Assembly: GCA_045605325.1 (NCBI GenBank)
Contig: JAZUPU010000032.1
Coordinates: 1,506-65,505, forward strand
Reading direction: 5' to 3'
DNA length: 64,000 nt
DNA from: Elusimicrobiaceae bacterium
GTDB taxonomy: Bacteria > Elusimicrobiota > Elusimicrobia > Elusimicrobiales > Elusimicrobiaceae
Under the pieces are notes generated by a model. That model had not been told where the DNA came from, did no database searches, and saw nothing but the letters and a program-made list of their open reading frames with translations. Below are positions 2,248-61,594 of the stretch, one piece after another (position 1 is the stretch's first letter; the number at the start of each line of letters is the position of its first letter). A program made the translations under genes and the position numbers.

Positions 2248-3171
2248 ATGACGTGGTATACTTACTTAATTTTCCCGATAATTGGTTTTATCGGTATGCT
2301 ATGCGGCGGTTTTTGGAGCGTCGGCTGCGGTTGGCTTATAGTGCCCACAATGCTAATTTTCGGGTTTGAACCTTTGGAAGCAGTCGGTGCGGCATTGGTG
2401 CAAATGGTATTTTCAACAGCACCGACAATATTAAAAGAAATGCCAAAACTTTCTTGGAAAAAATATTCAATTATGCGTTCTTTGGCTTTACCTATGGCAA
2501 TAGGTGTTGTTTTAACCGCTTTCAGCGGCCGCTTGATAAATGATTATTTGTATAATAAATTCGGTTCAAAAGCTCTGCTCTGCTTATTTGTTTTTGTAAT
2601 GCTTTTTATCGGCTTTCAAAGTTTATTCGGTAAGACAACAAAAAATCAAAATGAAGAACCGAATATTTCAAAATTACAAAGTATAGTTGCACTTTTTTGC
2701 GGAATGTTTGTTGGGGTTATAAGTTCGGTGCTTGGCATAAGCGGTGCTTTAGTTTTTAGACCGATAATAATAAACGGTTTTAAAATTGCTGAGAAACCGG
2801 CAACGCAAGCAGTACGCTTTTTGCTTTTAGTTGCGACAATAAGCGGCTCTATATTTTACTTATTTTCCGGTGGCAAATTCCATACAAATATTTTATTTTT
2901 AGGTGCACTTATTGCACTTGGCGGGGCTTTCGGTTTTCCGCTTGGGGTTAAATACGGAAGTATAGTTTTAAAAAACGGTTATGTTAAATTTTTACAAAAA
3001 AGTTTTGGTAGCATAATTTTAATAATCATCACGAATGCGATTTTAAATTTGCTTAATTTTGTTGCTTTTAGCCGTTATTTAATGATAATTTGTGCAATAG
3101 TTTTATTTACCGGTATAAATATATTTACTTTTTACGCTGCAAAACATCCGCAGTCAAACTCACAAAATTGA
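2248..3171 (+). CDS. TSUP (TauE/SafE, DUF81) family membrane transporter
   Basis: 307 aa, about 8 predicted TM helices, Gly-rich repeated halves typical of TauE/SafE permeases. Confidence 0.6.
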   Translation: MTWYTYLIFPIIGFIGMLCGGFWSVGCGWLIVPTMLIFGFEPLEAVGAALVQMVFSTAPTILKEMPKLSWKKYSIMRSLALPMAIGVVLTAFSGRLINDYLYNKFGSKALLCLFVFVMLFIGFQSLFGKTTKNQNEEPNISKLQSIVALFCGMFVGVISSVLGISGALVFRPIIINGFKIAEKPATQAVRFLLLVATISGSIFYLFSGGKFHTNILFLGALIALGGAFGFPLGVKYGSIVLKNGYVKFLQKSFGSIILIIITNAILNLLNFVAFSRYLMIICAIVLFTGINIFTFYAAKHPQSNSQN

Positions 3172-3228
3172 TATAATTTATTATAGCTTTAGGGCTAAAC
3201 AATTTGCTGTTTTTGGGGGCATTTGCCG

Positions 3229-3348
3229 CCTTCTTTTAGAAGGAATTCCAAACCAAAAATAGCCGTTTTATCTTTTGTTTTTTATTAAACAAAAGATAGC
3301 GGCTGTTTATTTGAGTGCTTGGAATTCCTCAAATAACAGCCGTTTTTT
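3229..3348 (+). promoter_or_regulatory. Leader with a long antiterminator-like hairpin competing with a terminator; short variant of the leader family at 9712 and 34204
   Basis: Outer arms ggaattccaa (3242-3251) / ttggaattcc (3319-3328), with inner arms atcttttgtt / aacaaaagat and agccg / cggct. Alternative terminator cggctgtttatttgag / ctcaaataacagccg followed by T6 (about 3300-3348). The terminator sequence is homologous to that of copy A. Confidence 0.4.
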
Positions 3349-3369
3349 ATTTTTGAAATCGGAGAATAT

Positions 3370-3483
3370 ATGAAAGAAATATTAATATTATTTTGTTTTT
3401 TTGCAGTTATGTTTTTGGCTTTTTATTCTGTATATTTAATTGCTAAACACGACAGAGAAAAGAATAAAATAAGGTTTAAGTAA
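3370..3483 (+). CDS. Possible 37-aa single-TM small protein (MKEILILFCFFAVMFLAFYSVYLIAKHDREKNKIRFK)
   Basis: GGAG at 3361-3364 lies 5 nt before the ATG. Hydrophobic helix plus a basic tail. Sits directly downstream of the switch-like leader and is below the ORF-track length cutoff. Confidence 0.35.
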   Translation: MKEILILFCFFAVMFLAFYSVYLIAKHDREKNKIRFK

Positions 3484-6559: not shown

Positions 6560-9500
6560 TTATAAAATATTTTTTAAAGTATTTAAAATTTGTTTAACTT
6601 CGGTTAATTTATTGTTTTGCGAGGCAAAAATTCTAAAACCGTCGCCGTTAGATGCTTGCAAAAATTCTATTTTCCCTGCAAAAGTTTGCATTATTTTTGC
6701 AAGTGATTCTTGCGGTATCTGTGCATTCCTTGCAAGGTAAAAATCATAAAATTTTGCGCCGGCTTCAATGGCGCGTATTTTTATTTCTCCCGCATCGGCA
6801 GAAATTTGCATAATCTCAATTAAGTTATTTAATTCTTTTGGAGCAGGACCGCATAAATCTTCTATTTTTTGTTTGAGTTTTTGTTTTGTTTCCGCATCAG
6901 TTTCCAAAAAATCTTTATAGAATTTCAAACGTTCTTCATCACTCGGCAAATAGTCCGGCGCAATAAAAGCCGGTATACCTAAATTAACTGTCGCATACAT
7001 TTTGCGGATAACCGGTTCTCCGCGTAATTTTTTAACTTCGTTTGCAACCAAATCGCAATAAAGAGAAAGCCCGACGGCATTTACATAACCGTGTTGCCTA
7101 ATACCTAGTAAATCACCTCCGCCGCGAATTTCCAAATCACGTAAAGCAAGTTTAAAACCGCTGCCGAGTTCACTAAATTCAAGCAAAGCGGATAAACGTT
7201 TTTGCGCCTCTGCATATGAGGGTTTATTTTTCTTTTTAGGGAAATAAAAATCTTCCGGGTTAAAATCTTCTTCGCGCTTATTTAAAATCCAAGACGGTGC
7301 AAGTAAATAACAATATGCTTTTTTATTTCCGCGCCCGATTCTGCCGCGCAACTGATAAAGTTGTGCAAGCCCGAAATTTTGCGGATTTTCCACAATCAAA
7401 GTATTTGCATTTGTAACATCAAGCCCACTTTCCACGATAGTAGAGCAAAGCAAAACATCATATTTTTTATTGTAAAAATCCCACAAAGTTTTTTCAAGTT
7501 CTTGTTCAGGCATTTGACCGTGTGCGCAAATTATTTTTATTTCCGGCATAAGTTTTTGTAAATACTCGCGCTTTTCTTCCATAGTGGCAACTGTATTAAA
7601 AAGATAAAAAACCTGACCGCCGCGCGCAAGTTCCTGGCGAACGGCATTAGTTACAATGCTGTCTTCATAGGCACACAAGAAAGTTTTAATAGGCATACGG
7701 CCTTGCGGCGCAGTTTGAATAATTGACATTTGCCTTAATGCCGATAAAGATTGGTTTAAAGTGCGCGGTATCGGCGTTGCGGAAAGCATTAAAGTATGTA
7801 CGCCGACGCTTTTAGCTTTAATCTTTTCTTTTTGCTTGACACCGAAGCGGTGTTCTTCATCAACAATACACAAACCTAAATTTTTAAAAATAACATCTTT
7901 TGAAAGCAAACGGTGCGTACCCACAACGATATCCACTTTGCCGTTTTTAATATTTTCCACAACTTTTTTTTGCTCAGTTTTTGTTTGAAAACGACTTAAC
8001 ATTTCAATATTAATAGGGTATGCCTGCAAACGTTCTTTAAAAGTTTTAAAATGTTGGCTTGCAAGAACTGTCGTCGGCACCAAAACAAGAACTTGCTTGT
8101 TACTTAAAACAGCACGCAAAGCAGCGCGTATTGCAACTTCCGTTTTCCCAAAACCTACATCGCCGATAAGCACACGGTCCATAGGAATATCTTTATTAAG
8201 ATCCTGCATAATTTCATTGATAGCTTGGTTTTGATCATCTGTTTCTTGATAAGGAAAAGAGTCAGCAAATTCCCTTTCCAAATGTTCATTACCGAGTAAA
8301 ATATCTGCCTTATGCGCACTACGCAAAGCAGCGGCCTGTAAAATTTCTTTAGCAACTTTTTGAGCATCTTCTTTAACCCGTTTTTTTACTTCCTTCCAAG
8401 TGGTTGTGTTTAATGAAGAAATTTTAGGTGCACGTCCTTTTAAGCCGATGTATTTTTGCACTTTTCTAAAATCGTGCAAAGGAACATATAATTTTTGCGA
8501 ACCTTTAAATTCAATTAACAGGCAATCAAGCGGTAAATCATTTTCATTTAAAGTAATCAGCCCACCGTAACGCCCTATACCGTGTTCTTGATGGACCACA
8601 TAATCCCCGATTTCAAGTTCTTTAAAGCGTACATATTTAGAAGAAGTTTTATCAAATTTTTCTGCAAAATTTGTTTGTTTGTACGAGTGTTTTAAAAGTT
8701 GTGCCGAAGTAAAAAAAGCAAAATTTTCCTTAGTACTGTAAAACCCTTCTTGCAAAGGGGCTACACTGATACTTAAGGTTTTTAATCCGTCATAATCTTG
8801 GAAAACTTCTGTTAATCTTTCCATTTCCCCTTTATTTAAACAAAAGAAAGTGCTTTGAATATTTTTCTTGTTTAAGTTTAAAATTTCGCTATCAAACAAA
8901 GCAAAGTTTGCTTTAAAATCAAGCGGCGAACGCAAAAAACTGTCAACCCCATTTTCTGGAGGTAAATCGGTTAAAATTGTGGCTTCATTTTCTTGCAAAA
9001 ATTCTTGGGGCGGCTCAAAATAAAAATTATTAAAATCTTGCAACCAACGCGATAAAGTTGATGGTTTGACCTCAAATTCAAAAGGCAAAATTAAAATATC
9101 TTCAGCGGCGGAAATAGTATTTTGAGTATCCAAATCAAATACGGAAATTTGTTCTATTGTGTTTGCTTTAAAATATAGGCGAACAGGTTTTGCTGAGTTT
9201 ATCGGAAAGATATCAAGTACGCTGCCACGCACGGCATAATCGGCAGGGGTTTCGGTGAAATCCACACGTTTATAATTTAGTTTATTTAAAGTGTTTAAAA
9301 ATTCTGCACGGTTAATTGTTTGCCCTCTTTGCAATTTAAAAACTTGGGAATTAAAATCTTTTTTCCCGGCAACTTCTTGCTTTAAAGCTTCGTAAGTTGT
9401 AGCAATAAATAAAGGTTTATCGTTTTTTGAAATAGCTTCCAAAGCGGAGTATAAAGAAAATTTATCCTCGTAAATTGTTAAGAATTTACAACCGGTGTTT

Positions 9501-9646
9501 GTAGCAAAAGTTTGATAAGCGGCTTCAAAAATTTCAATTTCTTCTTCGCTATTACAGACAAAAAGAGTGCGTGCGCTTTTTTGTTTTAATACATTTATTA
9601 TAAAAAAAGCACTTGCGGAAATATTAGGAACATACACAGTTGCCAT
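6560..9646 (-). CDS. mfd: Transcription-repair coupling factor Mfd
   Basis: 1028 aa. CarD/RID-like region (YVVHQEHGIGRY), SF2 helicase motifs (GDVGFGKTEVA, DEEHRFG, SATPIPRT) and a TRG region. Confidence 0.95.
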   Translation of the reverse strand: MATVYVPNISASAFFIINVLKQKSARTLFVCNSEEEIEIFEAAYQTFATNTGCKFLTIYEDKFSLYSALEAISKNDKPLFIATTYEALKQEVAGKKDFNSQVFKLQRGQTINRAEFLNTLNKLNYKRVDFTETPADYAVRGSVLDIFPINSAKPVRLYFKANTIEQISVFDLDTQNTISAAEDILILPFEFEVKPSTLSRWLQDFNNFYFEPPQEFLQENEATILTDLPPENGVDSFLRSPLDFKANFALFDSEILNLNKKNIQSTFFCLNKGEMERLTEVFQDYDGLKTLSISVAPLQEGFYSTKENFAFFTSAQLLKHSYKQTNFAEKFDKTSSKYVRFKELEIGDYVVHQEHGIGRYGGLITLNENDLPLDCLLIEFKGSQKLYVPLHDFRKVQKYIGLKGRAPKISSLNTTTWKEVKKRVKEDAQKVAKEILQAAALRSAHKADILLGNEHLEREFADSFPYQETDDQNQAINEIMQDLNKDIPMDRVLIGDVGFGKTEVAIRAALRAVLSNKQVLVLVPTTVLASQHFKTFKERLQAYPINIEMLSRFQTKTEQKKVVENIKNGKVDIVVGTHRLLSKDVIFKNLGLCIVDEEHRFGVKQKEKIKAKSVGVHTLMLSATPIPRTLNQSLSALRQMSIIQTAPQGRMPIKTFLCAYEDSIVTNAVRQELARGGQVFYLFNTVATMEEKREYLQKLMPEIKIICAHGQMPEQELEKTLWDFYNKKYDVLLCSTIVESGLDVTNANTLIVENPQNFGLAQLYQLRGRIGRGNKKAYCYLLAPSWILNKREEDFNPEDFYFPKKKNKPSYAEAQKRLSALLEFSELGSGFKLALRDLEIRGGGDLLGIRQHGYVNAVGLSLYCDLVANEVKKLRGEPVIRKMYATVNLGIPAFIAPDYLPSDEERLKFYKDFLETDAETKQKLKQKIEDLCGPAPKELNNLIEIMQISADAGEIKIRAIEAGAKFYDFYLARNAQIPQESLAKIMQTFAGKIEFLQASNGDGFRIFASQNNKLTEVKQILNTLKNIL

Positions 9647-9711: not shown

Positions 9712-9971
9712 TGCTATAATAAAGTATAAGTTGTAAAAGGAGTTTTAAAATTATGTAGGGTTTAAAACCCTAAAAAATTTAATCTGTTTTTGGCCCGCAA
9801 TGGCGGGATGTTAATAGAAATATTAACGCATATAGATGCCAAGAACAGTCGTTAAGGCACATAATGGTCTGGTTGATCCCCTTACTGTTATGTGCTGAAT
9901 GTTTGTCAGTAGACAAACTACGGCTGTTTTATTTAGGATCATCTATATGCCCAAAATAATCAGCCGTTTTT
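9712..9971 (+). promoter_or_regulatory. Extended -10 promoter plus a roughly 245-nt structured leader RNA with antiterminator/terminator switch (copy A)
   Basis: TGcTATAAT at 9712-9720. Helices 9758-9770, 9794-9807 and 9810-9827 (GAAA loop). P1 is 9828-9840 / 9936-9950 and the junction helix is 9844-9852 / 9920-9928. Hairpins at 9857-9895 and 9901-9918. Terminator cggctg (9921-9926) / cagccg (9961-9966) + T5. Covaries with copy B. Confidence 0.55.
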
Positions 9972-10006
9972 ATATGTAAAAATTTAGGAGGTTTAACATA
10001 ATACCT

Positions 10007-10447
10007 ATGTATAATATTGATGAAAAAATAAAAGATTTTACCGAACTGATTAAACAAAGGCCCGATATAAACGAACTTTATATTGAAAGAGCTAAACTTT
10101 ATTACGCAAAAGGGCAATATAAAAAAGTAGCCGAAGATTTTATAAAATCATTATCAGTTTATTATGACCTTATTGATATAAAAGAAGTATGTGAAAAAAA
10201 TAATCTAATTAAAGAGGCCGAATATTTTTATACCAAAGAAATAAACAAAAATAAAAATGATATTAATGCGTATATGGGCCGTTTGCATTTTTATATACGC
10301 AACGAGCAAATAGAAAAAGCAATTTTAGATTGTAAAGCAATATTAAAACTTTCCCCGAAAGATGAAACTATATTAGCACTTCGTAAAATATTAACCAGCC
10401 GCGAACCGCCTTTAAAAATGCGTAAAGGAGATTGGGTTATACGGTAA
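10007..10447 (+). CDS. TPR-repeat protein
   Basis: 146 aa with TPR-like helical repeats (YIERAKLYYAKGQYKKVAEDF, YMGRLHFYIRNEQIEKAILDCKAIL). The SD AGGAGG lies 15 nt upstream, which is long spacing. Confidence 0.55.
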   Translation: MYNIDEKIKDFTELIKQRPDINELYIERAKLYYAKGQYKKVAEDFIKSLSVYYDLIDIKEVCEKNNLIKEAEYFYTKEINKNKNDINAYMGRLHFYIRNEQIEKAILDCKAILKLSPKDETILALRKILTSREPPLKMRKGDWVIR

Positions 10448-10500
10448 ATTATCAATTATCTGCCCTTTAAAATTCGGCAAGTATTTTAAGAAAAGTTTTT

Positions 10501-10572
10501 ATCCCCCATCCGTCAAGCAAAATGAAAAACATTTTGCTTGCCACCCTCCGCCCGTCCACGACGGGTGAGGGC
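10501..10572 (+). repeat. GC-rich double-hairpin repeat, family 2
   Basis: atcccccatccgtc + hairpin caagcaaaatg/cattttgcttg + hairpin ccctccgcccgtc/gacgggtgaggg. Near-identical to 34097-34167. Confidence 0.6.
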
Positions 10573-27409: not shown

Positions 27410-27931
27410 TTAAAACGGACAAGAATAATAATTATTTACATTATTCGCATATAAAAAATTACATTTTAACAAATCAGAACAAAAACCATTTTGTGCATAT
27501 TCATAACACAGCAACTTGTTTTCCGGTAAATTGATACTAGCTTTATTTCTAATATAAAAACCTGAAAATTTATATTTACCTGTTTTACGAAGGGAAAAGA
27601 TACTACCGGATATAAGAACGACATTTTTTTCATTTGACAAGCAATCTGTTTTGTTCCAAAAAATAGAAAAATCTTCGCAACCATTCCTTTCATAACCACT
27701 TAAATTAATATCTAAATCGTCAAAATTTGTTGCAAATGTTCCGTTTGCTAAATAATATCTGTGTTGCGCTTCGTATAATGCTTTAACATTTATTAATAAT
27801 TCGCTTGCTTCTGATTTTTCTTTTGCGCGGCGATACTGCGGTAAAGCAATTGCTGCTAAAATGCCGATAATTAAAATAACTACTAATAATTCAAGCAATG
27901 TGAAACCTTGACTACTGTTTTTTATTTTCAT
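27410..27931 (-). CDS. Prepilin-type N-terminal cleavage/methylation-domain protein (type IV pilin/pseudopilin-like), paralog 1
   Basis: Motif GFTLLELLVVILIIGILAAIALPQY. 173 aa. The first roughly 85 aa are almost identical to the gene at 47894-48433. Conserved Cys pattern in the C-terminus. Confidence 0.85.
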   Translation of the reverse strand: MKIKNSSQGFTLLELLVVILIIGILAAIALPQYRRAKEKSEASELLINVKALYEAQHRYYLANGTFATNFDDLDINLSGYERNGCEDFSIFWNKTDCLSNEKNVVLISGSIFSLRKTGKYKFSGFYIRNKASINLPENKLLCYEYAQNGFCSDLLKCNFLYANNVNNYYSCPF

Positions 27932-33870: not shown

Positions 33871-34167
33871 CTCAAATTTTGATTTTTGTTTAAATTCAAA
33901 GCAGTTTATCGTTTTTTAAAAACAAATTAAAATTTGGGCAGTTTTTATTTGATTTTGATTTTTTACGACGGAGAATTTAAAAAAGTCCTTATTGTCGCCA
34001 CCCGTATGCCTTGTCATACGGGCGGGAGATGCTGAGCAAGGGCAGTTCTTGCGAAGCAGAGGGGGGATCAATAAGGAAATAAAATAGGAAAACCTTATCC
34101 CCCATCCGTCAAGCAAATAAAAAGCCATTTGCTTGCCACCCTCCGCCCGTCCACGACGGGTGAGGGC
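33871..34167. repeat. Mosaic of short family-1-like palindrome and family-2 GC-rich hairpin modules
   Basis: aaattttgatttttgttt ... aaacaaattaaaattt; cacccgtatg..catacgggcg; ggggggat..ccttatccccc. The canonical family-2 unit then occupies 34097-34167. Confidence 0.55.
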
Positions 34168-34203
34168 TATACGGAAAATTTTTACAAATTTACCTTTAAA
34201 ATA

Positions 34204-34475
34204 TGATATACTTTAAAAAACGAAAGGAGTGTTTTTATTTTTTAATGTAAGCCGATAACGGCTTAATACAATTTAATCTGTTTTTGGCCCGTAACGACGG
34301 AGAGTTAATAGAAATATTAACGCATATAGAAACCAAAAACAGTCGTATGGGCACAAAGCAAGAGGATTAATTACCCTCTTACTTTGTGCTTAATGTTTGT
34401 TATCGCAAGATAATAAACTACGACTGTTATGTTTTTGGTCTTTCTATATGCCCGAAACACAATAGTCGTTTTTTT
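34204..34475 (+). promoter_or_regulatory. Extended -10 promoter plus a roughly 260-nt structured leader RNA with antiterminator/terminator switch (copy B)
   Basis: TGaTATACT at 34204-34212. Same helix order as copy A, with compensatory substitutions. Terminator stem cgactgttatgtttttgg / ccgaaacacaatagtcg followed by T7 (ends 34475). Confidence 0.55.
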
Positions 34476-34494
34476 ATTTAGAAAAGGAGAAATT

Positions 34495-35034
34495 ATGAAA
34501 GAAAAACAAAAAATTATAAATAAAAAATTCACTAAAGGTTTTACCCTATTAGAACTTTTAGTTGTAGTATTAATTATCGGAGTTCTTGCTGCTATTGCTT
34601 TGCCGCAATATAATATGGCAGTAGCAAAAAGTAAATATAATACTATAAAAACAATGACGGAAGATCTAGTTTCATCAGTAGAGAGATATTATTTAGCAAC
34701 AAACACTAAACCTACGAACTTGGAAGATTTGGACATAGAGATAGAAGGAGAATATAAAAATAATTCTAAATTAAGAAAAATTTTACCAAACGGAGCAGAA
34801 TGCGGTTTCAATTATGGTACAGATGATTTTCAAGAAATTGTATGCATCACTAAAGTAAACGGTAAAACCATGTATTACCTGAGTACTTTTTATTATAAAA
34901 TTTCTAAACAAGAAAGACTTTGCTACGCTTCTACTAATATTACAGATATTACCAATAAATTATGCCAAATCGAAACAGGAAAAAATTCACCAACATCTTC
35001 TTGTCAAAGTTATTATTGTCCGTACGAATATTAA
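34495..35034 (+). CDS. Prepilin-type N-terminal methylation-domain protein (pilin/pseudopilin-like), paralog 3
   Basis: Start at MKEKQKIINKKFTKGFTLLELLVVVLIIGVLAAIALPQY with SD AAGGAGA. The ORF-track start at 34429 lies inside the leader terminator. Confidence 0.85.
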   Translation: MKEKQKIINKKFTKGFTLLELLVVVLIIGVLAAIALPQYNMAVAKSKYNTIKTMTEDLVSSVERYYLATNTKPTNLEDLDIEIEGEYKNNSKLRKILPNGAECGFNYGTDDFQEIVCITKVNGKTMYYLSTFYYKISKQERLCYASTNITDITNKLCQIETGKNSPTSSCQSYYCPYEY

Positions 35035-35122: not shown

Positions 35123-36001
35123 TTAAACCAAAGTTTTTAACTTATCGCCCAATACATTTAATTCTTCATAAGAATTAAAGTGTAAGGTTAAAGTCCCTTT
35201 ACCTTTGCCGTTTTCCTTAACTTCAACTTTGGTACCGAGCGCCTCTTGCAAGGACTGTTCAAAAGCAACTGTATTGGGGTCTTTGCTTTGTTTTGGGGCA
35301 GAGGTTTTGCCTTCCAAAATAGTTCTTGCGGCATTTTCTGCCTGGCGGACAGACATTTTAGAACTGATTATTTTTTTGAACAAAACTGCCCTTTTCCCCT
35401 CGTCACCAACCATTAAAAGTGCGCGACCGTGACCCTCTGTAATAGTTCCGTCTTGCAAGGCATTTTGTATTTCTTGGGAAAGGTTTAACAACCTTAAAGA
35501 ATTTGATACCGCCGCTTTTGATTTGCCGCAATATTCCGCAAGTTCCACTTGGGAAACCAAGAATTTTTGCATCAAATTTTTGTAACCGAGGGCGGTTTCA
35601 ATGGGGTTTAAGTCCTCCCTTTGAATATTTTCAATTAAAGCAAGGGCGCAAAGTTGTTTGTCGTCAAGTTTGGTATGTACAATACAATCAATTTCTTTAA
35701 AGCCCGCCATTTCGCTTGCTCTGAAGCGGCGTTCCCCTACTACTAATTCATATTTATCAAGACCGGCATCATAAACAACCACTACCGGCTGGGTTAAACC
35801 GTGTTGCTTAATTGACTGTGCCAAGTCCTTTAAACTGTCTTCATTAAATGTCTTTCTGGGTTGATATCTGTTAGGAATGATTTTGTCAATAGAAATCTTT
35901 TGAATATTCCTTTTACCTTCCCCACCGTTATTAATTTCCTGCTCCATTTCAAAAGAGGAGCCAAGCAAAGCATCTAAACCTTTTCCTAAAGCGTTTCTCA
36001 T
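35123..36001 (-). CDS. parB: Chromosome partitioning protein ParB (Spo0J)
   Basis: Motifs IPNRYQPRKTF and LVVGERRFRAS, plus an HTH region. Confidence 0.9.
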   Translation of the reverse strand: MRNALGKGLDALLGSSFEMEQEINNGGEGKRNIQKISIDKIIPNRYQPRKTFNEDSLKDLAQSIKQHGLTQPVVVVYDAGLDKYELVVGERRFRASEMAGFKEIDCIVHTKLDDKQLCALALIENIQREDLNPIETALGYKNLMQKFLVSQVELAEYCGKSKAAVSNSLRLLNLSQEIQNALQDGTITEGHGRALLMVGDEGKRAVLFKKIISSKMSVRQAENAARTILEGKTSAPKQSKDPNTVAFEQSLQEALGTKVEVKENGKGKGTLTLHFNSYEELNVLGDKLKTLV

Positions 36002-47893: not shown

Positions 47894-48433
47894 ATGAAAG
47901 GAATAAAGAAAGGTAACAAAGGTTTTACATTACTTGAATTATTAGTAGTTATTTTAATTATCGGGATTTTAGCTGCAATTGCCTTACCGCAATATAGGCG
48001 CGCAAAAGAAAAATCAGAAGCTAGTGAATTATTAATAAACGTTAAAGCATTACACGAAGCGCAACAAAGATATTATTTAGCAAACGGAACATTTGCAACA
48101 AATTTTGATGATTTAGATATTAATTTAAGTGGTTATGAAAGGGGTGGTTGCGAAGATTTTGAGACATTTCACAATAAAAATGATTGTCTTTCAAATAATA
48201 AAAACATAATTTTTATTCAGAACGATGGTGCAAATTTAATTTCTCTACGAAAAACAGGGAAATATCAAAAGTCAGGATTTTCATTTAGGGAAATTGTTAC
48301 TGATGCCCGTCCGGAAAACAAATTACTTTGTTATGAATATAATATGAGTGGTTTTTGTTCCGAGTTATTAAAGTGCGATTCAATAGTATATGTGCCTAAT
48401 AATATAAATGGTTTTTACTCTTGTAACCTTTAA
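47894..48433 (+). CDS. Prepilin-type N-terminal methylation-domain protein (pilin/pseudopilin-like), paralog 2
   Basis: Sequence MKGIKKGNKGFTLLELLVVILIIGILAAIALPQYRRAKEKSEASELL. The ATG at 47894 is preferred over the upstream non-ATG start of the ORF track. Confidence 0.85.
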   Translation: MKGIKKGNKGFTLLELLVVILIIGILAAIALPQYRRAKEKSEASELLINVKALHEAQQRYYLANGTFATNFDDLDINLSGYERGGCEDFETFHNKNDCLSNNKNIIFIQNDGANLISLRKTGKYQKSGFSFREIVTDARPENKLLCYEYNMSGFCSELLKCDSIVYVPNNINGFYSCNL

Positions 48434-53548: not shown

Positions 53549-56500
53549 ATGGAACAATTAAATTTCGGCAAAATTAAAACCAAAGTTGCAATGACACATT
53601 TGCTTGCCATGCAACATCAATCATTTAACAATTTTTTGCAAAGATATACAGACCCTAAAAAAAGGGAAACACGTGGCCTTCAAGGCGTATTTGAAGATAT
53701 TTTCCCGATAGAAGCCCCAGACGGGAGCATGAGATTAGATTTTGTAAAATATATCGTCGGTGAAGAAAAGTATTCTTCCCCAATGGAAGCTATTAACAGG
53801 GACGGCACTTACAGCGTTCCTTTAAAAGCTACTTTGCGTTTAAGTTTTTATAAAGTAAAAAAAGATAAAAGTTCAAGAGATTTTATTAAAGCTGAAGAAG
53901 AAGATATACTTCTTTGTGATTTACCGGTTATGACAGAAGCCGGTTGCTTCGTTTATAACGGTGATGAACGCGTTGTAGTAAGCCAACTTCACAGATCCCC
54001 TGGTATTATCTTTGAAGAAGACGAAGAAAAACAACAAAGTACACTCGGTAAAAAATTATATGTCGCACGCATTATTCCTTACAGAGGTGCGTGGATTGAA
54101 TTTCAATTTGATATAGCCAACGTTTTGTGGGTGCGTATTGATAAAAAGAAAAAATTCTTAGCAACAACTTTCTTACGCGCTTGCGGCCTTGAAACAAATG
54201 CACAAATTTTACAGGCATTCTACCCTACGGAAACTGTACAAGTAAAATTAAACGATATTGATAATGTCGTCGGCCGCTATGCAGCTGAAGATATCGTTAA
54301 TGATCAAGGTGAAGTCCTTTGGAACTTAGATGAAAAGGCCTCAACCCCGATTGATGATAAAACCTTTGGTATATTAATAGAAAATAAAATTAAAACAATT
54401 AAGGTTTTAAGCGGTAACCCTCGCCAAGATAACCCCGGTATTTTAGTTACTTTGGAAGCTAGCAAAAAAGATGAACCGAAAACTAAAGGCGAAGCCCAAT
54501 ATGAAGTTTACAGGAAAATGCGCGGGCAAGATTTTATCATTAAAGAACAAGCCGAACACTTTTTGGATAGCTTAATATTTAAGAATATTAAAAGGTATGA
54601 TTTAAGCTTTGTCGGCCGCTTTAAAATCAACAAAAAATTTGATTATTTCTTTGAAAAATTAGCCAAACAAAATAAAGAATTTGCAAAACCTAAAGACAAT
54701 GCAAGAACTTTATCTACACAAGATGTTATCGTTACTTTGCAATATCTTTTGGCATTAAACGCAGGTGAAGAAGTTTCAAATGAAATGTATAAAGATTTCA
54801 CCTTTAAAATAGACGATATTGACCATTTAGGAAACAGGCGTGTACGCGGTATCGGCGAACTTTTGGAAAACCAAGTCCGCATCGGTTTATCACAAATGGC
54901 GAAAATCGTTCGCGATAAGATGACTAAAGAAAACGGTAACAGGAAAATTACCCCAAGAACTTTAGTCAATGATCAACAAATCCGTGTTTGTATGAGAAGG
55001 TTTTTCGGTACCCATCAACTTTCACAGTTTATGGACCAAATTAACCCTCTATCAGAACTTACACATAAAAGGCGTTTATCAGCATTAGGTCCCGGTGGTT
55101 TAAACAGAAAACGCGCCGGCTTTGAAGTCCGCGACGTTCACTATACTCATTATGGTCGTCTTTGCCCGATTGAAACCCCTGAAGGTCCGAACATCGGTTT
55201 GATTACCTCTTTAGCTTGTTATTCAAAAGTTAATGAATACGGTTTGCTTGAAACCCCGTTTAGAAAAGTCAAAAACGGTAAAGCAACCGATGAAGTTGAT
55301 TATTTAACAGCCGATATTGAAGACGATTTTATGGTAGCACAGTCAAATACTCCGTTGGATGCAAAAGGTAATTTGGCTACCGATCAAGTTGCTTGCCGTG
55401 TTAGGGCAGATTATCCTATTGTTACCCCTACGGAAGTTGACTATATGGATATTTCACCCTTGCAAGTTATCAGCGTTTCAGCAGCTTTAATTCCTTTCTT
55501 GGAACACGATGACGCAAACCGTGCTTTGATGGGTTGTAACATGCAACGTCAGGGTGTCCCTTTACTTAATACCGAAGCACCTTTAGTAGGTACAGGTATT
55601 GAAGAAATCGTAGCACATGACTCCGGCACAACAATCATTGCAAAACGTGCAGGTAAAGTAGTTTTATCTTCTGCAGATTTAATTGTTGTTGAAGCAGCAG
55701 ATAAAAAAGGACCCAGATATGATACTTATGAACTTGTTAAATATAAAAGGTCTAACCAAGATACTTGTATTAACCACAGACCTCTTGTAAAAACAGGCGA
55801 TATCGTAAAAGAAGGGCAAACCTTGGTTGACGGTCCTGCAATGAAAGACGGTATCTTATCATTAGGTCGTAACTTGCTTGTTGGCTTTATGAGTTGGGAA
55901 GGTTATAACTACGAAGACGCTATTTTGATTTCTAATCGTTTAGTGAAAGAAGATATTTTAACTTCTATACACTTACACGAATTTTCAACTGATGCAAGAA
56001 GTACAAAACTCGGTGCGGAAGAAATTACAAAAGATATTCCGAATATTGCCAATGATACTTTAGCTCATTTGGATAATGACGGTATTATTTTACCGGCAAC
56101 AGTTGTAGGTCCCGGTGATATTTTGGTAGGTAAAGTTACACCGAAAGGTGAACAACAACTTACACCGGAAGAAAGATTACTCAAAGTAATCTTCGGCAAA
56201 AAAGCTGATGATGTTGTTGATGCTTCTTTACGCGTTCCGCCCGGCACAACAGGTAAAGTTATCGGTACAAGAGTTTTTGTCCGTATGGAAAAGAACTTTG
56301 ACGATAAAATTGAAAAGATTACCAAAAAAGTTGTTGAAGCCGTTTCCGCTAAAGAGAAACACGCAGCCATTGCTAATATTGATTCGGAATTGGAAAAAAT
56401 TATTAAAACAAAAAATGACAGAATGTCTAATTTTGTTAAGAAATTAAAAGAAATCCGCGATGAATATAATGCAGATCTTTCCTCCGTACAAGAAGCAAAA

Positions 56501-57490
56501 GCAATTGCTTTGGAAGAAGCTAAAGAAAAATATTCTAAAGCAGCAGAATTAAAGAAAGCACAGGAATCTATCACCAGCCTTTATAAAGATTTAGAAGAAA
56601 AGGCACTTAACAAATATATTGCAAATATTAAACTATTGCAAGCAGGTGATGAAAACTTAGCAGTTGTAGTCAATAAATCAGTAAAAGTATTTATTGCTTC
56701 AAAACGCAAAGTTCAAGTCGGTGATAAACTTTCCGGCCGCCACGGTAACAAAGGTATCGTTGCAAGAATTTTACCGGAAGAAGATATGCCTTACTTGCCT
56801 GATGGTACACCTCTTGATGTCGTTCTTTCACCTTTAGGTATCCCGTCAAGAATGAACGTGGGTCAGCTCTTAGAAGTTATGCTCGGTTGGGCAGCTCACC
56901 ACTTAAATATCAATACAGCAACCCCTGTGTTTGACGGTCCGAGTGAAGAAGAAGTAAAAGAACAAATCAGAAAAGCAAAAGATGTTTTACGCAAAAAAGG
57001 TGTACCGGAACAATATTTACCGGATGATTATTGCCGTATAACTTTATATGACGGTCGCACCGGTGAACCTTTTGAAGAAAAAGTTACAATCGGTTATATG
57101 TACATTATGAAACTTATTCACTTAGTTGAAGATAAAGTACATAGCCGTTCAACAGGACCTTATAGTTTAATTACACGCCAACCTTTGGGCGGTAAAGCAC
57201 AATTCGGCGGTCAGAGATTCGGTGAAATGGAAGTATGGGCCATTGAAGGTTATGGTGCTACATATACTTTACAAGAGTTCTTAACAGTTAAATCAGACGA
57301 TTTTAACGGCAGAACAAAAATGTATGAAGCTATTGTAAAAGGTCAATTACCGACACAACCCGGTGTACCGGAATCTTTCAAAGTTCTTGTAAAAGAATTA
57401 CAAGCCCTAGGGCTTAGCGTGGAGTTGCCGAGAATTAGAAAAACGAACTCTAAAACTCCTGTCGTAGAAAAAGAAGAGAAGGTTAAATAG
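53549..57490 (+). CDS. rpoB: DNA-directed RNA polymerase beta subunit
   Basis: 1313 aa with rif-region and catalytic motifs ([25 protein letters not shown]). Coiled-coil lineage insertion at about aa 880-1000. Confidence 0.98.
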
Positions 57491-57499
57491 GAGCATAAA

Positions 57500-60400: not shown

Positions 60401-61594
60401 AAAGATATTAAAATTATTGAAGACAGATTTGAAAATAAACTCTGTCTTTCAAGGAACGGCTCTATCTTCGTAGAAGATGAAAAAGGAAATGTTAAAGAGT
60501 ATAAAATCCCATACGGTGCCAAAATTTTGGTAGATGATAAATCAAAAGTTACCAAAGATACCATTATGGCTGAATGGGATCCTCACTCACTTCCTTTGAT
60601 TGCTGAAAGAAACGGTAAAATTAAACTTCTTGATGTTGTAGAAGGTATTACACTTCAAGAAGAGCGTAACAAAGTAACAGGTATTATTGAACGCAAAATT
60701 ACCGCCAGCAAGATGGGCCGCAAAAACCCGCGTATCATTATTGATAAAGTTCCTTATCCTTTAACTATTGATACTATTTTATTAGTTGAAGAAGGTGAAG
60801 AAGTCCAAGCGGGTGATATTTTAGCAAAAATTGCTAAAGAATCAGGCGGTACAAAAGATATTACGGGCGGTTTGCCTCGTATTGCAGAATTGTTTGAGGC
60901 AAGAACCCCCAGAAACCCCGCCATTATCGCAGAATTTGCAGGTGTGATTCGCTTAGAAACCTCTTCTAAGGGCTTGACTGAGGTAGTCCTTAGTAATGAG
61001 GAAATACAACAAGAAAAGCATTACCCGATTCCGCAAGGTAAACACTTAAGAGTTTACACCGGAGATAAAGTCGCAAAAGGTGATGCTTTAACCGATGGTG
61101 CTATAGATCCACACGACGTGCTGCGCGTGAAGGATATTCAAGAAGTGCAGGAATTCTTGCTTAACGCCATTCAGGAGGTTTACCGCTTACAGGGTGTTAC
61201 GATTAACGACAAACATATTGAAGTTATCGTTCGCCAAATGTTAAGCAATGTGAAGATCCAAGAAGTTGGTGATTCAACCTTCTTAAAAGGCCAAATTGTT
61301 AGCAAATCCGAGTATAGAAAGGAAAATGAACGTTTAGAAGCAGAAGGTAAAAAACCTGCTTTTGCAAAACCGATCTTACTTGGTATCAGTAAAGCATCAC
61401 TAGCATCTGAATCATTTATATCAGCTGCCAGCTTCCAGGAAACAACCCGCGTGTTAACAGATGCTGCTATCAAAGGGCAAGTTGACGACTTAGAAGGCCT
61501 AAAAGAAAACGTAATCGTAGGCCATTTAATTCCCGCAGGAACAGGTATAGCTACCAAAAATATCAAGCGAGAATTTGAAGAGAAAGCAAAATAA
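57500..61594 (+). CDS. rpoC: DNA-directed RNA polymerase beta' subunit
   Basis: 1364 aa. Zinc motif CxC..C..C, active site NADFDGDQM, bridge-helix and trigger-loop regions. Confidence 0.98.

What the first reader, a model, noticed from the sequence alone, without database searches (positions are those of the whole stretch)
9712..9971. Riboswitch-like structured leader, copy A (upstream of a TPR-protein gene)
A roughly 245-nt transcript segment follows an extended -10 promoter (TGcTATAAT) and folds into an ordered set of helices that recur at 34204-34475.

Compensatory changes between the two copies:
- P1: gcatatagaTGcc / gg..CAtctatatgc in A, against gcatatagaAAcc / gg..TTtctatatgc in B.
- Hairpin: gcacaTAA / TTAtgtgc in A, against gcacaAAG / CTTtgtgc in B.
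- Small hairpin: cccgC / Gcggg in A, against cccgT / Acgg in B.

A GAAA-capped hairpin, gttaata-GAAA-tattaac, is identical in both copies.

The 3' strand acggctg of the junction-closing helix (aacagtcgt / acggctgtt) is also the 5' half of an intrinsic terminator (cggctg...cagccg + T5). The folded sensor and the terminator are therefore mutually exclusive, which is the classic riboswitch or antitermination-leader layout. I could not match it by eye to any riboswitch class I know. I checked the c-di-GMP I/II, T-box, purine, TPP, SAM, FMN, glycine, lysine, ykkC and c-di-AMP consensus cores.
Basis: seen in the sequence. Interest (0 to 1): 0.72.

Follow-up and report, generated by a model that had tools for sequence, protein, structure and literature searches.

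The report
New pilin-gene attenuator leader RNA family
The region is one of three copies in this window, and well over a hundred in gut Elusimicrobia, of an undescribed 200-nt leader RNA that can fold either into a transcription terminator or into a competing anti-terminator in front of pilin-like genes, and that carries a hairpin loop built to pair with itself.

Summary
A third, compact copy lies at 3195-3353.

No Rfam 15 family matches, and no paper I could search describes it. One DNA pattern found at least 120 loci, all in Elusimicrobiota genomes (mostly gut and rumen MAGs), with up to 17 copies seen per genome. Mean identity between copies is 54%. About 71% sit a median 42 nt upstream of a type IV pilin-like gene and 9% upstream of a small TPR gene.

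The anatomy is a four-segment attenuator:
- seg1:seg2 plus seg3:seg4 (terminator) competes with seg2:seg3 extended by a copy-specific helix, P4.
- Both folds are conserved, covary, and are nearly equal in energy.

This is the geometry of a kissing-loop dimerisation site.

The input signal is unknown. A metabolite pocket is poorly supported, so "riboswitch" is only partly supported. I class it as a new variant of a known kind.

The parts
9712..9720 (+). Copy A promoter: extended -10 element TGCTATAAT. Transcription is inferred to start near 9727.
   Evidence: Read directly in the sequence. Homologous leaders have a -10 hexamer at the equivalent or a closer position. The simple sigma-70 scan did not call it because there is no -35 element.
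9738..9772 (+). Copy A 5' extension, present only in a subfamily. It holds AGGAG (9738-9742), a start-stop mini-ORF AUG-UAG (9753-9758) and hairpin P0 (9756-9772).
   Evidence: A Shine-Dalgarno sequence plus AUG plus stop occurs in 20 of 123 leaders, against 3.8 in shuffles. It is absent from the 56 leaders whose -10 hexamer lies 16 nt from seg1, so it is not part of the core.
9784..9793 (+). Copy A seg1, CUGUUUUUGG: the anti-antiterminator strand. It pairs with seg2 and, alternatively, with seg4.
   Evidence: The seg1:seg2 helix is paired in 98.9% of cells over 128 sequences, and 5 of its 10 pairs show changes on both sides. It forms first in the growing-chain folds.
9794..9827 (+). Copy A hairpins P2 (9794-9807, CCCGC-AAUG-GCGGG) and P3 (9810-9827, GAAA tetraloop).
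   Evidence: In the family, two hairpins lie here in 127 of 135 copies. The P3 loop is GNRA in 46 of 135, and the P2 loop is a GNRGA pentaloop in 43 of 135.
9828..9838 (+).
   Evidence: It pairs with 9940-9950. Across the family, a copy's own pair of strands gives -14.1 kcal/mol against -3.9 for strands from different copies. The own partner is the best of 117 in 94 cases.
9839..9852 (+). Copy A seg2, CCAAGAACAGUCGU. It pairs either with seg1 or with seg3 (helix P5, the antiterminator).
   Evidence: P5 is paired in 96.3% of cells. Pair 107-234 is C-G in 101 sequences, U-G in 15 and U-A in 12.
9856..9896 (+). Copy A hairpin P6. Its apical loop UUGAUCC (9873-9879) carries the palindrome GAUC.
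   Evidence: All 14 P6 pairs show changes on both sides. The loop holds a palindrome in 129 of 135 copies.
9901..9918 (+). Copy A hairpin P7, GUUUGUC-AGUA-GACAAAC.
   Evidence: All 8 pairs covary and 97.9% of cells are paired.
9920..9937 (+). Copy A seg3, ACGGCUGUUUUAUUUAGG. It is the 3' strand of P5 or the 5' half of the terminator stem.
9940..9950 (+). Copy A P4 3' strand, CAUCUAUAUGC. It forms the loop of the terminator hairpin in the terminating fold.
9951..9972 (+). Copy A seg4, CCAAAAUAAUCAGCCGU (the 3' half of the terminator), and the U run at 9967-9971.
   Evidence: The terminator helix is paired in 91.8% of cells, and 7 of its pairs show changes on both sides.
9986..10447 (+). Controlled gene of copy A: ribosome-binding site AGGAGG (9986-9991) and a 146-aa TPR protein (10007-10447).
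   Evidence: TPR homologues in other genomes are each preceded by the same leader.
34204..34476 (+). Copy B. -10 element TGATATACT at 34204-34212; mini-ORF AUGUAA at 34245-34250; P0 at 34249-34264; seg1 at 34278-34287; P2 at 34289-34300; P3 at 34304-34321; P4 5' strand at 34322-34332; seg2 at 34333-34346; P6 at 34349-34391, with loop AUUAAUUAC at 34366-34374 holding the palindrome UAAUUA; P7 at 34395-34418; seg3 at 34420-34438; P4 3' strand at 34441-34451; seg4 at 34452-34469; U run at 34469-34475.
   Evidence: (158.1 bits).
34484..35034 (+). Controlled gene of copy B: ribosome-binding site AAGGAG and a 179-aa type IV pilin-like protein (34495-35034) with the motif [25 protein letters not shown].
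   Evidence: Pfam N_methyl at 1.1e-07, above its cut-off. NCBIfam TIGR02532 above its cut-off.
3172..3348 (+). Copy C, a compact variant without P6. -10 element TATAAT at 3172-3177; seg1 at 3207-3216; P2 at 3218-3227; P3 at 3229-3243; P4 5' strand at 3242-3251; seg2 at 3253-3265; a single hairpin at 3272-3297; seg3 at 3300-3315; P4 3' strand at 3319-3328; seg4 at 3327-3342; U run at 3343-3348.
   Evidence: Covariance-model hit of 60.5 bits, E about 3e-14. Sequence. The growing-chain folds show the same order of pairings.
3370..3483 (+). ORF downstream of copy C: a 37-aa hydrophobic peptide, MKEILILFCFFAVMFLAFYSVYLIAKHDREKNKIRFK.
   Evidence: No family match. Whether it is expressed is not known.

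Best explanation
Copy A belongs to an undescribed family of roughly 200-nt 5' leader RNAs found in Elusimicrobiota (Elusimicrobiaceae and relatives). These leaders gate transcription into pilin-like, small TPR and a few other genes by attenuation.

**The switch.** Four segments with two-fold sequence symmetry can pair in two ways. Seg1 (CUGUUUUUGG) resembles the distal part of seg3, and seg2 (CCAAAAACAGCCGU) resembles seg4.
- Terminating fold: seg1:seg2 plus seg3:seg4. The second helix is a long intrinsic terminator followed by a U run.
- Read-through fold: seg2:seg3 (P5), prolonged by a copy-specific helix P4. P4 forms between the stretch 5' of seg2 and the terminator loop. Seg1 is then free or paired with seg4.

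Hairpins P2 and P3 lie inside the seg1:seg2 loop. P6 and P7 lie between seg2 and seg3. All four persist in both folds.

**Order of events during synthesis.** Seg1:seg2 forms first. Seg3 can then invade through the CCGU/ACGG toehold and be locked in place by P4. Seg4 must displace seg2 within the roughly 25 nt before the U run, or the polymerase reads through.

**What is shown.**
- The two folds, their covariation and their near-equal energies.
- The P4 strands co-evolve within each copy.
- The gene association and the taxonomic range.
- The P6 apical loop is self-complementary.

**What is inferred.**
- That termination and read-through actually occur.
- That the decision is set by a trans-acting macromolecule acting on seg1 or the seg1:seg2 helix, rather than by a metabolite.
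- That P6 mediates kissing-loop homodimerisation of leaders carrying the same palindrome, coupling the decision or the RNA's fate to the abundance of like transcripts.

I put about 0.8 on 'new cis-acting four-segment attenuator family'. I put about 0.5 on P6 dimerisation being real. I put about 0.4 on a protein or RNA factor, as opposed to a small molecule, being the input.
For: **Structure beyond chance.** z is -6.4 for copy A and -9.4 for copy B.

**A family, not a pair.**
- A single pattern hit at least 120 stretches of genome DNA, all from Elusimicrobiota, and 0 viral contigs.
- There are 135 unique cores with 54% mean identity.
- The covariance model found 128 full-length hits with E < 1e-20 in 100 sources, including 18 copies the pattern had missed.

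**Terminating fold.**
- 95.0% of cells are paired, against 36-48% when the partners are slid.
- 36 of 46 pairs show changes on both sides.
- 0 of 500 shuffles reach the observed values.
- It is RNAalifold's consensus for 60 sequences.

**Read-through fold.**
- P5 is 96.3% paired, with C-G to U-A exchange.
- P4: a copy's own strands give -14.1 +/- 3.7 kcal/mol, against -3.9 +/- 2.5 for strands from different copies. The own partner is the best of 117 in 94 cases.

**Balance between the folds.** E(read-through) minus E(terminating) is +3.9 +/- 5.5 kcal/mol. The terminating fold is the minimum in 89 copies and the read-through fold in 26, including window copies A and B. Growing-chain folds of the three window copies switch from seg1:seg2 to seg2:seg3 once seg3 appears.

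**Cis role.**
- Of 124 assessable copies, 88 precede pilin-like genes and 11 precede TPR genes.
- The median distance from the U run to the start codon is 42 nt and 30 nt respectively. That leaves little room for a separate promoter.

**P6 loop.**
- 129 of 135 loops hold a Watson-Crick palindrome of at least 4 nt, and 99 of 135 one of at least 6 nt. Shuffled loops give 54.5 and 9.0.
- Only 7 of 135 P7 loops do.
- Self-pair positions 2-5 read AU 46, UA 42, GC 17, CG 14. Positions 3-4 read AU 95, CG 12, GC 10, UA 2.
- 14 of the 18 pattern-independent copies show it too.
- There is no consistent second site in cis.
- The usual 9-nt loop is 2 nt, then a 6-nt palindrome, then 1 nt. This is the HIV-1 DIS layout (PMC7357161 for the DIS palindrome and its flanks; the 2+6+1 count for DIS is from my own knowledge).
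Against: - There is no expression data. Termination at the U runs and read-through have not been observed.
- Seg1, part of seg3 and CGUUUUU were fixed by the search pattern. Their invariance is therefore partly built in, and only 18 copies are free of this bias.
It has almost no independent compensatory change: 1 of its 10 pairs.
- In window copies A and B the read-through fold is the computed minimum. On thermodynamics alone these two copies would rarely terminate.
- No trans-acting factor has been identified.
- Dimerisation rests on loop covariation alone.
- Copy C and a few family members lack the P6 palindrome, so it is not essential to the switch.
- The P5/P6/P7 junction carries an invariant A (100%) and another A at 95%. 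These could belong to a small ligand site.
Confidence: 0.75

Rival explanations
1. It is a small-molecule or second-messenger riboswitch (an ON switch). A ligand binds the three-way junction P5/P6/P7, or the P2/P3/P4 junction. This stabilises the antiterminator and turns on pilin-like genes. A cyclic dinucleotide is the obvious candidate, given the gene class and the many copies per genome.
For: - The antiterminator/terminator layout fits.
- The three-way junction has an invariant A in J6/7 and a 95% conserved A in J5/6.
- P3 often ends in a GNRA tetraloop, which suggests tertiary docking.
- A regulon of many copies before surface-structure genes resembles what is known for c-di-GMP riboswitches (my own knowledge).
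- A GGDEF-EAL gene lies next to one copy in L005. This is anecdotal.
Against: - No hit to c-di-GMP-I or -II, or to any other riboswitch model in Rfam 15, even at E <= 10.
- Only about five conserved unpaired nucleotides lie outside the switching segments.
- P2 and P3 vary in number and sequence.
- Copy C has no P6 and therefore no three-way junction.
- Most sequence conservation sits in the expression-platform strands themselves.
Confidence: 0.2
2. It is a protein-dependent, processive antitermination site of the phage lambda nut or rrn type. U-rich seg1 with its conserved 5' flank would act like boxA. The adjacent P2 hairpin with a GNRGA pentaloop would act like boxB. Together they would load an N-like or Nus factor complex that makes RNA polymerase ignore the terminator.
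For: - P2 loops are GAAGA, GCAGA, GUGGA or GUAGA in 43 of 135 copies. GAAGA is the lambda nutR boxB loop (my own knowledge).
- In 56 of 123 copies seg1 lies only about 10 nt from the inferred 5' end.
- The 5' flank ACAAUUUAUCUG is conserved.
Against: - Window copies A, B and C have tetraloop P2 hairpins (AAUG, AACG, AUUU), not pentaloops.
- L001 and L002 have a single hairpin here.
- Processive antitermination needs no antiterminator helix. Yet P4 and P5 are under strong selection.
- No viral copies were found.
- No candidate N-like protein was identified.
Confidence: 0.1
3. It is primarily a stand-alone small RNA gene, 200-250 nt long, with its own promoter and terminator. The RNA acts in trans or as a homodimeric particle. 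The downstream gene is then only a neighbour, or is expressed by incidental read-through.
For: - It has its own promoter and a strong terminator.
- The self-complementary P6 loop suggests an RNA-RNA assembly role.
- A few copies have no convincing downstream ORF, for example L053, L067 and window copy C with only a 37-aa ORF.
Against: - Orientation is always the same as the downstream gene.
- 80 of the 88 pilin-associated copies end within 100 nt of the start codon, with a median of 42 nt. The gene therefore has no evident promoter of its own.
- A conserved antiterminator with a copy-specific P4 has no purpose in an RNA that is always terminated.
Confidence: 0.1
4. It is a classical leader-peptide (trp-type) attenuator, or alternatively a miniature mobile repeat (MITE/REP) with no RNA function.
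For: - The four-segment layout is that of trp-type attenuators.
- A Shine-Dalgarno sequence plus AUG lies upstream in copies A and B.
- The element is multicopy, and its seg1/seg4 ends are inverted repeats.
Against: - The mini-ORF occurs in only 20 of 123 copies. It usually has zero sense codons and ends about 25 nt before seg1.
- 56 of 123 leaders start about 10 nt before seg1, leaving no room for a leader peptide.
- Against a mobile repeat: copies are 54% identical with compensatory changes in every helix. They always sit upstream of a gene in the same orientation.
Confidence: 0.03

Closest known systems
Terminator/antiterminator/anti-antiterminator leaders: trp-type attenuators, and the expression platforms of transcriptional riboswitches and T-boxes
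   Same: - Four consecutive segments with mutually exclusive 1:2, 2:3 and 3:4 pairings.
- An intrinsic terminator directly before the ribosome-binding site.
- The leader has its own promoter.
- Many copies define a regulon.
   Different: - No leader peptide overlaps seg1.
- There is no specifier loop or T-box sequence, and no match to any Rfam family.
- The antiterminator is prolonged by a copy-specific helix (P4) whose 3' strand is the terminator loop.
- The two hairpins have near-identical stems, so a fully nested 1:4 + 2:3 fold is also possible.
- The sensor is not identified.
HIV-1 dimerisation initiation site (DIS) and the oskar 3'-UTR palindromic loop (kissing-loop homodimerisation)
   Same: - A hairpin whose apical loop, mostly 9 nt, holds a 6-nt Watson-Crick palindrome flanked by unpaired bases.
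- Several palindrome variants coexist, one of them GUGCAC, as in HIV-1 (PMC7357161).
   Different: - It is bacterial, sits inside a transcription attenuator, and is present in many paralogous copies per genome with at least 12 palindromes.
- The flanks are mostly A/C rather than conserved purines.
- Some loops are 7 nt with a 4-nt palindrome.
- Dimerisation has not been shown.
c-di-GMP-I/II riboswitches before pilus and surface genes (for example pilA1 of Clostridioides difficile)
   Same: - A structured leader with a terminator in front of type IV pilin genes.
- Many copies per genome.
- GNRA tetraloops are present.
   Different: No sequence or structure match to either model. The architecture differs, and no conserved pocket is evident.
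Phage lambda nut site (boxA + boxB) and rrn antitermination leaders
   Same: A U-rich single-stranded element close to the 5' end is followed by a short hairpin. In about a third of copies this hairpin has a GNRGA pentaloop. The element sits upstream of a terminator.
   Different: - The pentaloop is absent from the three window copies.
- The family has a conserved alternative-pairing antiterminator, which nut sites lack.
- No N-like factor is known here.

Membership tests
Any described RNA family (Rfam 15, 4227 models) | Score at or above the family's gathering threshold | tested here: not met
   There were 0 hits in the 64-kb window. Scans at E <= 10 around both copies gave only snoRNA and miRNA noise well below gathering scores. 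In 17 related loci carrying about 25 leaders, only tRNAs were found.
Transcriptional riboswitch (small-molecule sensing) | An expression platform in which the aptamer fold and an intrinsic terminator exclude each other | tested here: met
   P5 and P4 against the seg3:seg4 terminator, both conserved.
Transcriptional riboswitch (small-molecule sensing) | A conserved ligand-binding core: many invariant unpaired or junction nucleotides and a fixed helix architecture | tested here: inconclusive
   Outside the switching strands only A7, U10, A121, U143 and A187 are at least 90% conserved and unpaired. P2 and P3 vary. Copy C lacks P6.
Transcriptional riboswitch (small-molecule sensing) | Direct, selective ligand binding that changes the fold | not testable with these tools
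   This needs in-line probing, SHAPE or ITC.
Leader-peptide (trp-type) attenuator | Four segments with alternative 1:2, 2:3 and 3:4 pairings | tested here: met
Leader-peptide (trp-type) attenuator | A translated leader ORF with regulatory codons whose ribosome covers seg1 | tested here: not met
   A Shine-Dalgarno sequence plus AUG plus stop occurs in only 20 of 123 copies. Fourteen of these have zero sense codons, and the ORF ends about 25 nt upstream of seg1. In 56 of 123 copies the leader starts about 10 nt before seg1.
Kissing-loop dimerisation element (HIV-1 DIS type) | A hairpin loop containing a self-complementary 4-6 nt sequence with unpaired flanks, where the sequence varies but the self-complementarity is kept | tested here: met
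   129 of 135 loops hold a palindrome of at least 4 nt and 99 of 135 one of at least 6 nt, against 54.5 and 9.0 in shuffled loops. Several pair types occur at the inner self-pair positions, all four at positions 2-5. The loop is 9 nt in 64 copies.
Kissing-loop dimerisation element (HIV-1 DIS type) | Demonstrated RNA homodimer that depends on the palindrome | not testable with these tools
   This needs native gels, SEC or AUC with palindrome mutants and compensatory pairs.
Lambda nut-type processive antitermination site | A boxB hairpin with a GNRA-like pentaloop next to a boxA element | tested here: not met
   Window copies have AAUG, AACG and AUUU loops in P2. The pentaloop is present in only 43 of 135 family members.
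Miniature mobile repeat (MITE/REP) | Near-identical copies in either orientation relative to genes, with no compensatory substitutions | tested here: not met
   Mean identity is 54%. Compensatory changes occur in 36 of 46 pairs. The orientation is always upstream of a same-strand gene.

The most novel reading that the evidence does not exclude
The leader is a self-recognising attenuator. Variable palindromic P6 loops, and perhaps the copy-specific P4 strands, let leader RNAs of the same 'address' pair with each other. Each pilin paralogue, or each class of paralogues, would then sense the abundance of its own transcripts and adjust termination accordingly. This would be an RNA-only dosage or mutual-exclusion circuit choosing among dozens of pilin-like genes in one cell. 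It would also be the first natural bacterial cis-regulator whose input is homodimerisation of the regulator RNA itself.
Probability: 0.15. Interest if true: 0.9.

Novelty: new variant of a known kind. Interest (0 to 1): 0.7.

Why it matters
Elusimicrobia carry an unusually large set of type IV pilin-like genes whose role and control are unknown. The claim about the size of this gene set rests on my own recollection of the E. minutum genome paper, which I could not read here.

This family gives those genes a shared, testable control element. It defines a regulon of pilin-like, small TPR and a few surface or membrane proteins in an uncultured-rich gut lineage.

For RNA biology it adds three things:
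- A well-supported orphan leader, with more than 128 diverse sequences, two conserved competing folds, and a helix that co-evolves separately in each copy.
- A clean natural case of loop self-complementarity kept through at least 12 sequence variants. Natural RNA homo-oligomers are considered rare (PMC7357161, PMC12286853).
- Simple experiments that could link RNA dimerisation to transcription termination.

Tried and rejected
- **Exact-sequence look-ups.** The window's TPR protein, its thymidine kinase and P0002 were not on record. This genome itself is not in that collection.
- **Known RNA families.** Rfam at gathering threshold and at E <= 10 gave nothing.
- **Leader-peptide idea.** The motif AAAGGAG + AUG + stop looked conserved in the first four sequences. 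It is confined to a subfamily and carries no sense codons. Many leaders start about 10 nt before seg1.
- **Cis partner for the P6 palindrome.** The same 6-mer recurs in 27 of 98 copies at scattered positions, mostly AT-rich promoter or downstream sequence. There is no fixed second site.
- **Canonical 11-nt GAAA receptor.** Not seen by eye in either copy.
It is compatible with most copies but has almost no independent covariation: 1 of its 10 pairs. I therefore do not count it as established.
- **P2 in the MAFFT alignment.** P2 could not be aligned, so P2 and P3 were analysed per sequence.
- **Phage origin.** There were 0 hits in viral contigs.
- **Literature.** Searches for Elusimicrobia with riboswitch, RNA motif, pilin or noncoding RNA found no description. 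The E. minutum genome paper is not held.
Full report
**1. The observation**

There is an extended -10 element: TGCTATAAT in copy A and TGATATACT in copy B. A conserved core of about 200 nt follows, 80% identical between the copies over the aligned stretch. It ends in a stem and a U run just before the ribosome-binding site of a 146-aa TPR protein (A) and a 179-aa pilin-like protein (B).

Both copies fold far better than shuffled sequence, with z of -6.4 and -9.4 and 0 of 200 shuffles as stable.

**2. It is not a known RNA**

- Rfam 15 gives no hit at gathering thresholds in the whole window.
- Permissive scans give only noise.
- Seventeen related loci give only tRNAs.
- Searches of the paper library found no description.

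**3. It is a large family**

Homologues of the TPR protein lie on contigs where each TPR gene is preceded by a homologous leader about 300 nt long. The helix sequences of these leaders are quite different. One contig also has the leader in front of a pilin-like gene.

A pattern built from the shared blocks was CTGTTTTT N115-145 AAAYYACGRCTRTT N25-55 CGTTTTT.
- Every record is Elusimicrobiota, mostly from rumen and gut: Elusimicrobiaceae, Elusimicrobium and Avelusimicrobium. One bin is labelled Spirochaetes.
- Up to 17 copies were seen for one assembly.
- It hit nothing in viral contigs.

There are 135 distinct cores with a mean pairwise identity of 54%.

A covariance model found 128 full-length matches with E < 1e-20 in 100 sources. 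Eighteen of these had been missed by the pattern. It also found a third, compact copy in the window at 3195-3353.

**4. Gene association**

Of 124 copies with enough downstream sequence:
- 88 precede a protein with the prepilin motif [19 protein letters not shown].
- 11 precede the small TPR protein.
- 25 precede something else. Several of these look like frameshifted or truncated pilin genes, and others include a glycosyltransferase-like protein and zinc-ribbon membrane proteins.

The distance from the U run to the start codon has a median of 42 nt for pilins and 30 nt for TPR genes. The downstream gene must therefore be transcribed through the leader. Not every pilin-like gene has it. Two of the three in this window do not.

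**5. Anatomy: two competing folds**

Four segments matter. In copy A they are:
- seg1, CUGUUUUUGG (9784-9793)
- seg2, CCAAGAACAGUCGU (9839-9852)
- seg3, ACGGCUGUUUUAUUUAGG (9920-9937)
- seg4, CCAAAAUAAUCAGCCGU (9951-9967)

Seg1 resembles the distal half of seg3, and seg2 resembles seg4.

*Fold X (terminating).* This is seg1:seg2 plus seg3:seg4. The second helix is a long terminator whose loop is the 3' strand of helix P4. Fold X is RNAalifold's consensus for 60 sequences. On the 128-sequence alignment it is paired in 95.0% of cells, against 36-48% for slid partners. Thirty-six of 46 pairs show changes on both sides, and no shuffle out of 500 reaches the observed values.

P5 is 96.3% paired. 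One position goes from C-G to U-A in 12 sequences and to U-G in 15, while it still pairs with seg1 in fold X.

P4 cannot be aligned because every copy has its own sequence. I therefore compared duplex energies between each copy's 5' strand and each copy's terminator loop.
- Strands from the same copy give -14.1 +/- 3.7 kcal/mol.
- Strands from different copies give -3.9 +/- 2.5 kcal/mol.
- The copy's own partner is the best of 117 in 94 cases.

This is alignment-free evidence that the two P4 strands co-evolve.

The outer helix seg1:seg4 is possible in most copies but has almost no independent covariation.

Hairpins P6 and P7 are in both folds. They covary at every pair.

**6. Energetics and order of folding**

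Constrained folding of 135 copies gives E(Y) minus E(X) of +3.9 +/- 5.5 kcal/mol. X is the minimum in 89 copies and Y in 26, including window copies A and B.

Folding growing chains of the three window copies shows the following order:
- Seg1:seg2 forms as soon as seg2 is made.
- The minimum switches to seg2:seg3 when seg3 appears.
- P4 then adds 10-13 kcal/mol.
- Only then does seg4 emerge.

Seg2 keeps four bases (CCGU or UCGU) unpaired in fold X. These are complementary to the start of seg3 and form a natural toehold.

From this I infer a kinetic decision taken in the roughly 25 nt before the U run. Whatever stabilises seg1:seg2 favours termination. Whatever sequesters seg1 or speeds P4/P5 formation favours read-through.

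**7. What senses?**

*A leader peptide is excluded.* The AGGAG + AUG + stop motif in copies A and B occurs in only 20 of 123 leaders. It usually has no sense codon and ends about 25 nt before seg1. In 56 leaders the -10 hexamer lies 16 nt from seg1.

*A metabolite pocket is poorly supported.*
- Outside the switching strands only about five unpaired positions are at least 90% conserved. Among them are an invariant A in J6/7 and an A in J5/6.
- P2 and P3 vary in number and loop type.
- Copy C has no P6.

The most conserved primary sequence is seg1 with its 5' flank, which is single-stranded in fold Y. I therefore favour a trans-acting macromolecule acting on seg1 or on the seg1:seg2 helix. None has been identified.

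About a third of P2 loops are GNRGA pentaloops, reminiscent of lambda boxB (from my own knowledge). The window copies are not among them.

**8. The self-complementary loop**

The apical loop of P6 holds a Watson-Crick palindrome in nearly every copy.
- 129 of 135 loops have one of at least 4 nt, and 99 of 135 one of at least 6 nt. Shuffled loops give 54.5 and 9.0.
- P7 loops, as a control, have one in 7 of 135.
- More than a dozen palindromes occur: UAAUUA, UUAUAA, UCAUGA, UUCGAA, UUGCAA, UAGCUA, UCUAGA, CUAUAG, GUGCAC, GAUC, GGCC, AGCU and UCGA.
- Up to eight different ones occur in one genome.
- Self-pair positions 2-5 show all four Watson-Crick types: AU 46, UA 42, GC 17, CG 14. Positions 3-4 show AU 95, CG 12, GC 10, UA 2.
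- The loop is usually 9 nt: two bases, the 6-nt palindrome, then one base.
- Copies found by the model alone show the same feature, in 14 of 18.
- No second site with the same hexamer recurs at a fixed place in cis.

A palindrome inside a 9-nt loop cannot pair within the loop. The only reading I can find that explains covariation of a sequence with itself is intermolecular pairing of two like loops, as in the HIV-1 DIS or the oskar 3' UTR (PMC7357161).

In the window, copy A has UUGAUCC (GAUC) and copy B has AUUAAUUAC (UAAUUA). What dimerisation would do to the switch is not shown. The feature is dispensable in copy C.

**9. Comparison and novelty**

The element works like a terminator/antiterminator/anti-antiterminator leader. 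It fails the membership tests for the following:
- every Rfam family;
- trp-type attenuators, because there is no leader peptide over seg1;
- nut sites, because the window copies have no pentaloop;
- mobile repeats, because the copies are diverged, carry compensated changes, and keep a fixed orientation.

It meets the sequence-level definition of a kissing-loop dimerisation hairpin.

I class it as a new variant of a known kind. It is a new, lineage-specific attenuator family with two unusual additions: a copy-specific antiterminator extension that doubles as the terminator loop, and a variable self-complementary loop.

**10. Caveats**

- There is no expression or biochemical evidence.
- Seg1, part of seg3 and the start of the U run were fixed by the search pattern, so their invariance is partly by construction.
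- Sequences are related, so shuffle controls overstate independence. The slid-partner and same-copy versus different-copy controls do not suffer from this.

Noticed in passing
window 3195-3353 (+), ORF 3370-3483: A third, compact copy of the leader. It has seg1-seg4, P2, P3 and P4, but a single hairpin in place of P6/P7. It sits directly after the stop of ORF 2248-3171 and is followed by a 37-aa hydrophobic ORF with no family match.
   Followed up: partly
window 9738-9758 and 34225-34250; 20 of 123 related leaders: A 'start-stop' mini-ORF: a Shine-Dalgarno sequence, then AUG, then an immediate stop codon that overlaps the 5' strand of hairpin P0. It lies about 25 nt upstream of seg1. It is enriched over shuffles (20 against 3.8) but confined to a subfamily.
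   Followed up: partly
window about 10497-10572 and 34084-34172: A GC-rich repeat of about 85 nt (TTATCCCCCATCCGTCAAGC...CCACCCTCCGCCCGTCCACGACGGGTGAGGGC) containing an inverted repeat. It occurs after the TPR gene and before the promoter of copy B. Similar GC-rich elements sit between terminator and start codon in other loci (for example L005 6200-6320) and show up as odd N-terminal 'extensions' of called pilin ORFs.
   Followed up: partly
window 27410-27931 (-) and 47894-48433 (+): Two further pilin-like genes whose N-terminal portions are nearly identical ([44 protein letters not shown]). They have no leader upstream, so the leader marks only part of the pilin-like gene set.
   Followed up: no
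L001 5842-6243; L005 3907-4302 and 10001-10399 (GCA_965132625.1): The small TPR protein has at least three paralogues on one 93-kb contig. Each sits behind its own leader, in different neighbourhoods: next to rpmG-secE-nusG, the S10 operon, and a GGDEF-EAL gene. It might be a regulon member or the regulator itself.
   Followed up: no
P2 hairpin of related leaders (for example L007 5572-5788, L010 2914-3137): P2 is often CCGUAU-GNRGA-AUACGG, with a pentaloop GAAGA, GCAGA, GUGGA or GUAGA in 43 of 135 copies. This resembles phage lambda boxB, and it follows a U-rich 5' element.
   Followed up: partly
L010, L030 (UQJU01, 'uncultured Spirochaetes bacterium UMGS352'): A bin labelled Spirochaetes carries typical leaders and pilin-like genes of this Elusimicrobiota family. 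The label is probably a taxonomic mis-assignment.
   Followed up: no
window 53549-61594 and neighbours: Two very long ORFs (1313 and 1364 aa) preceded by short ORFs look like rplJ/rplL-rpoB-rpoC. A parB gene lies at 35123-36001 and mfd at 6560-9646. The window is ordinary chromosome, not a mobile element.
   Followed up: no
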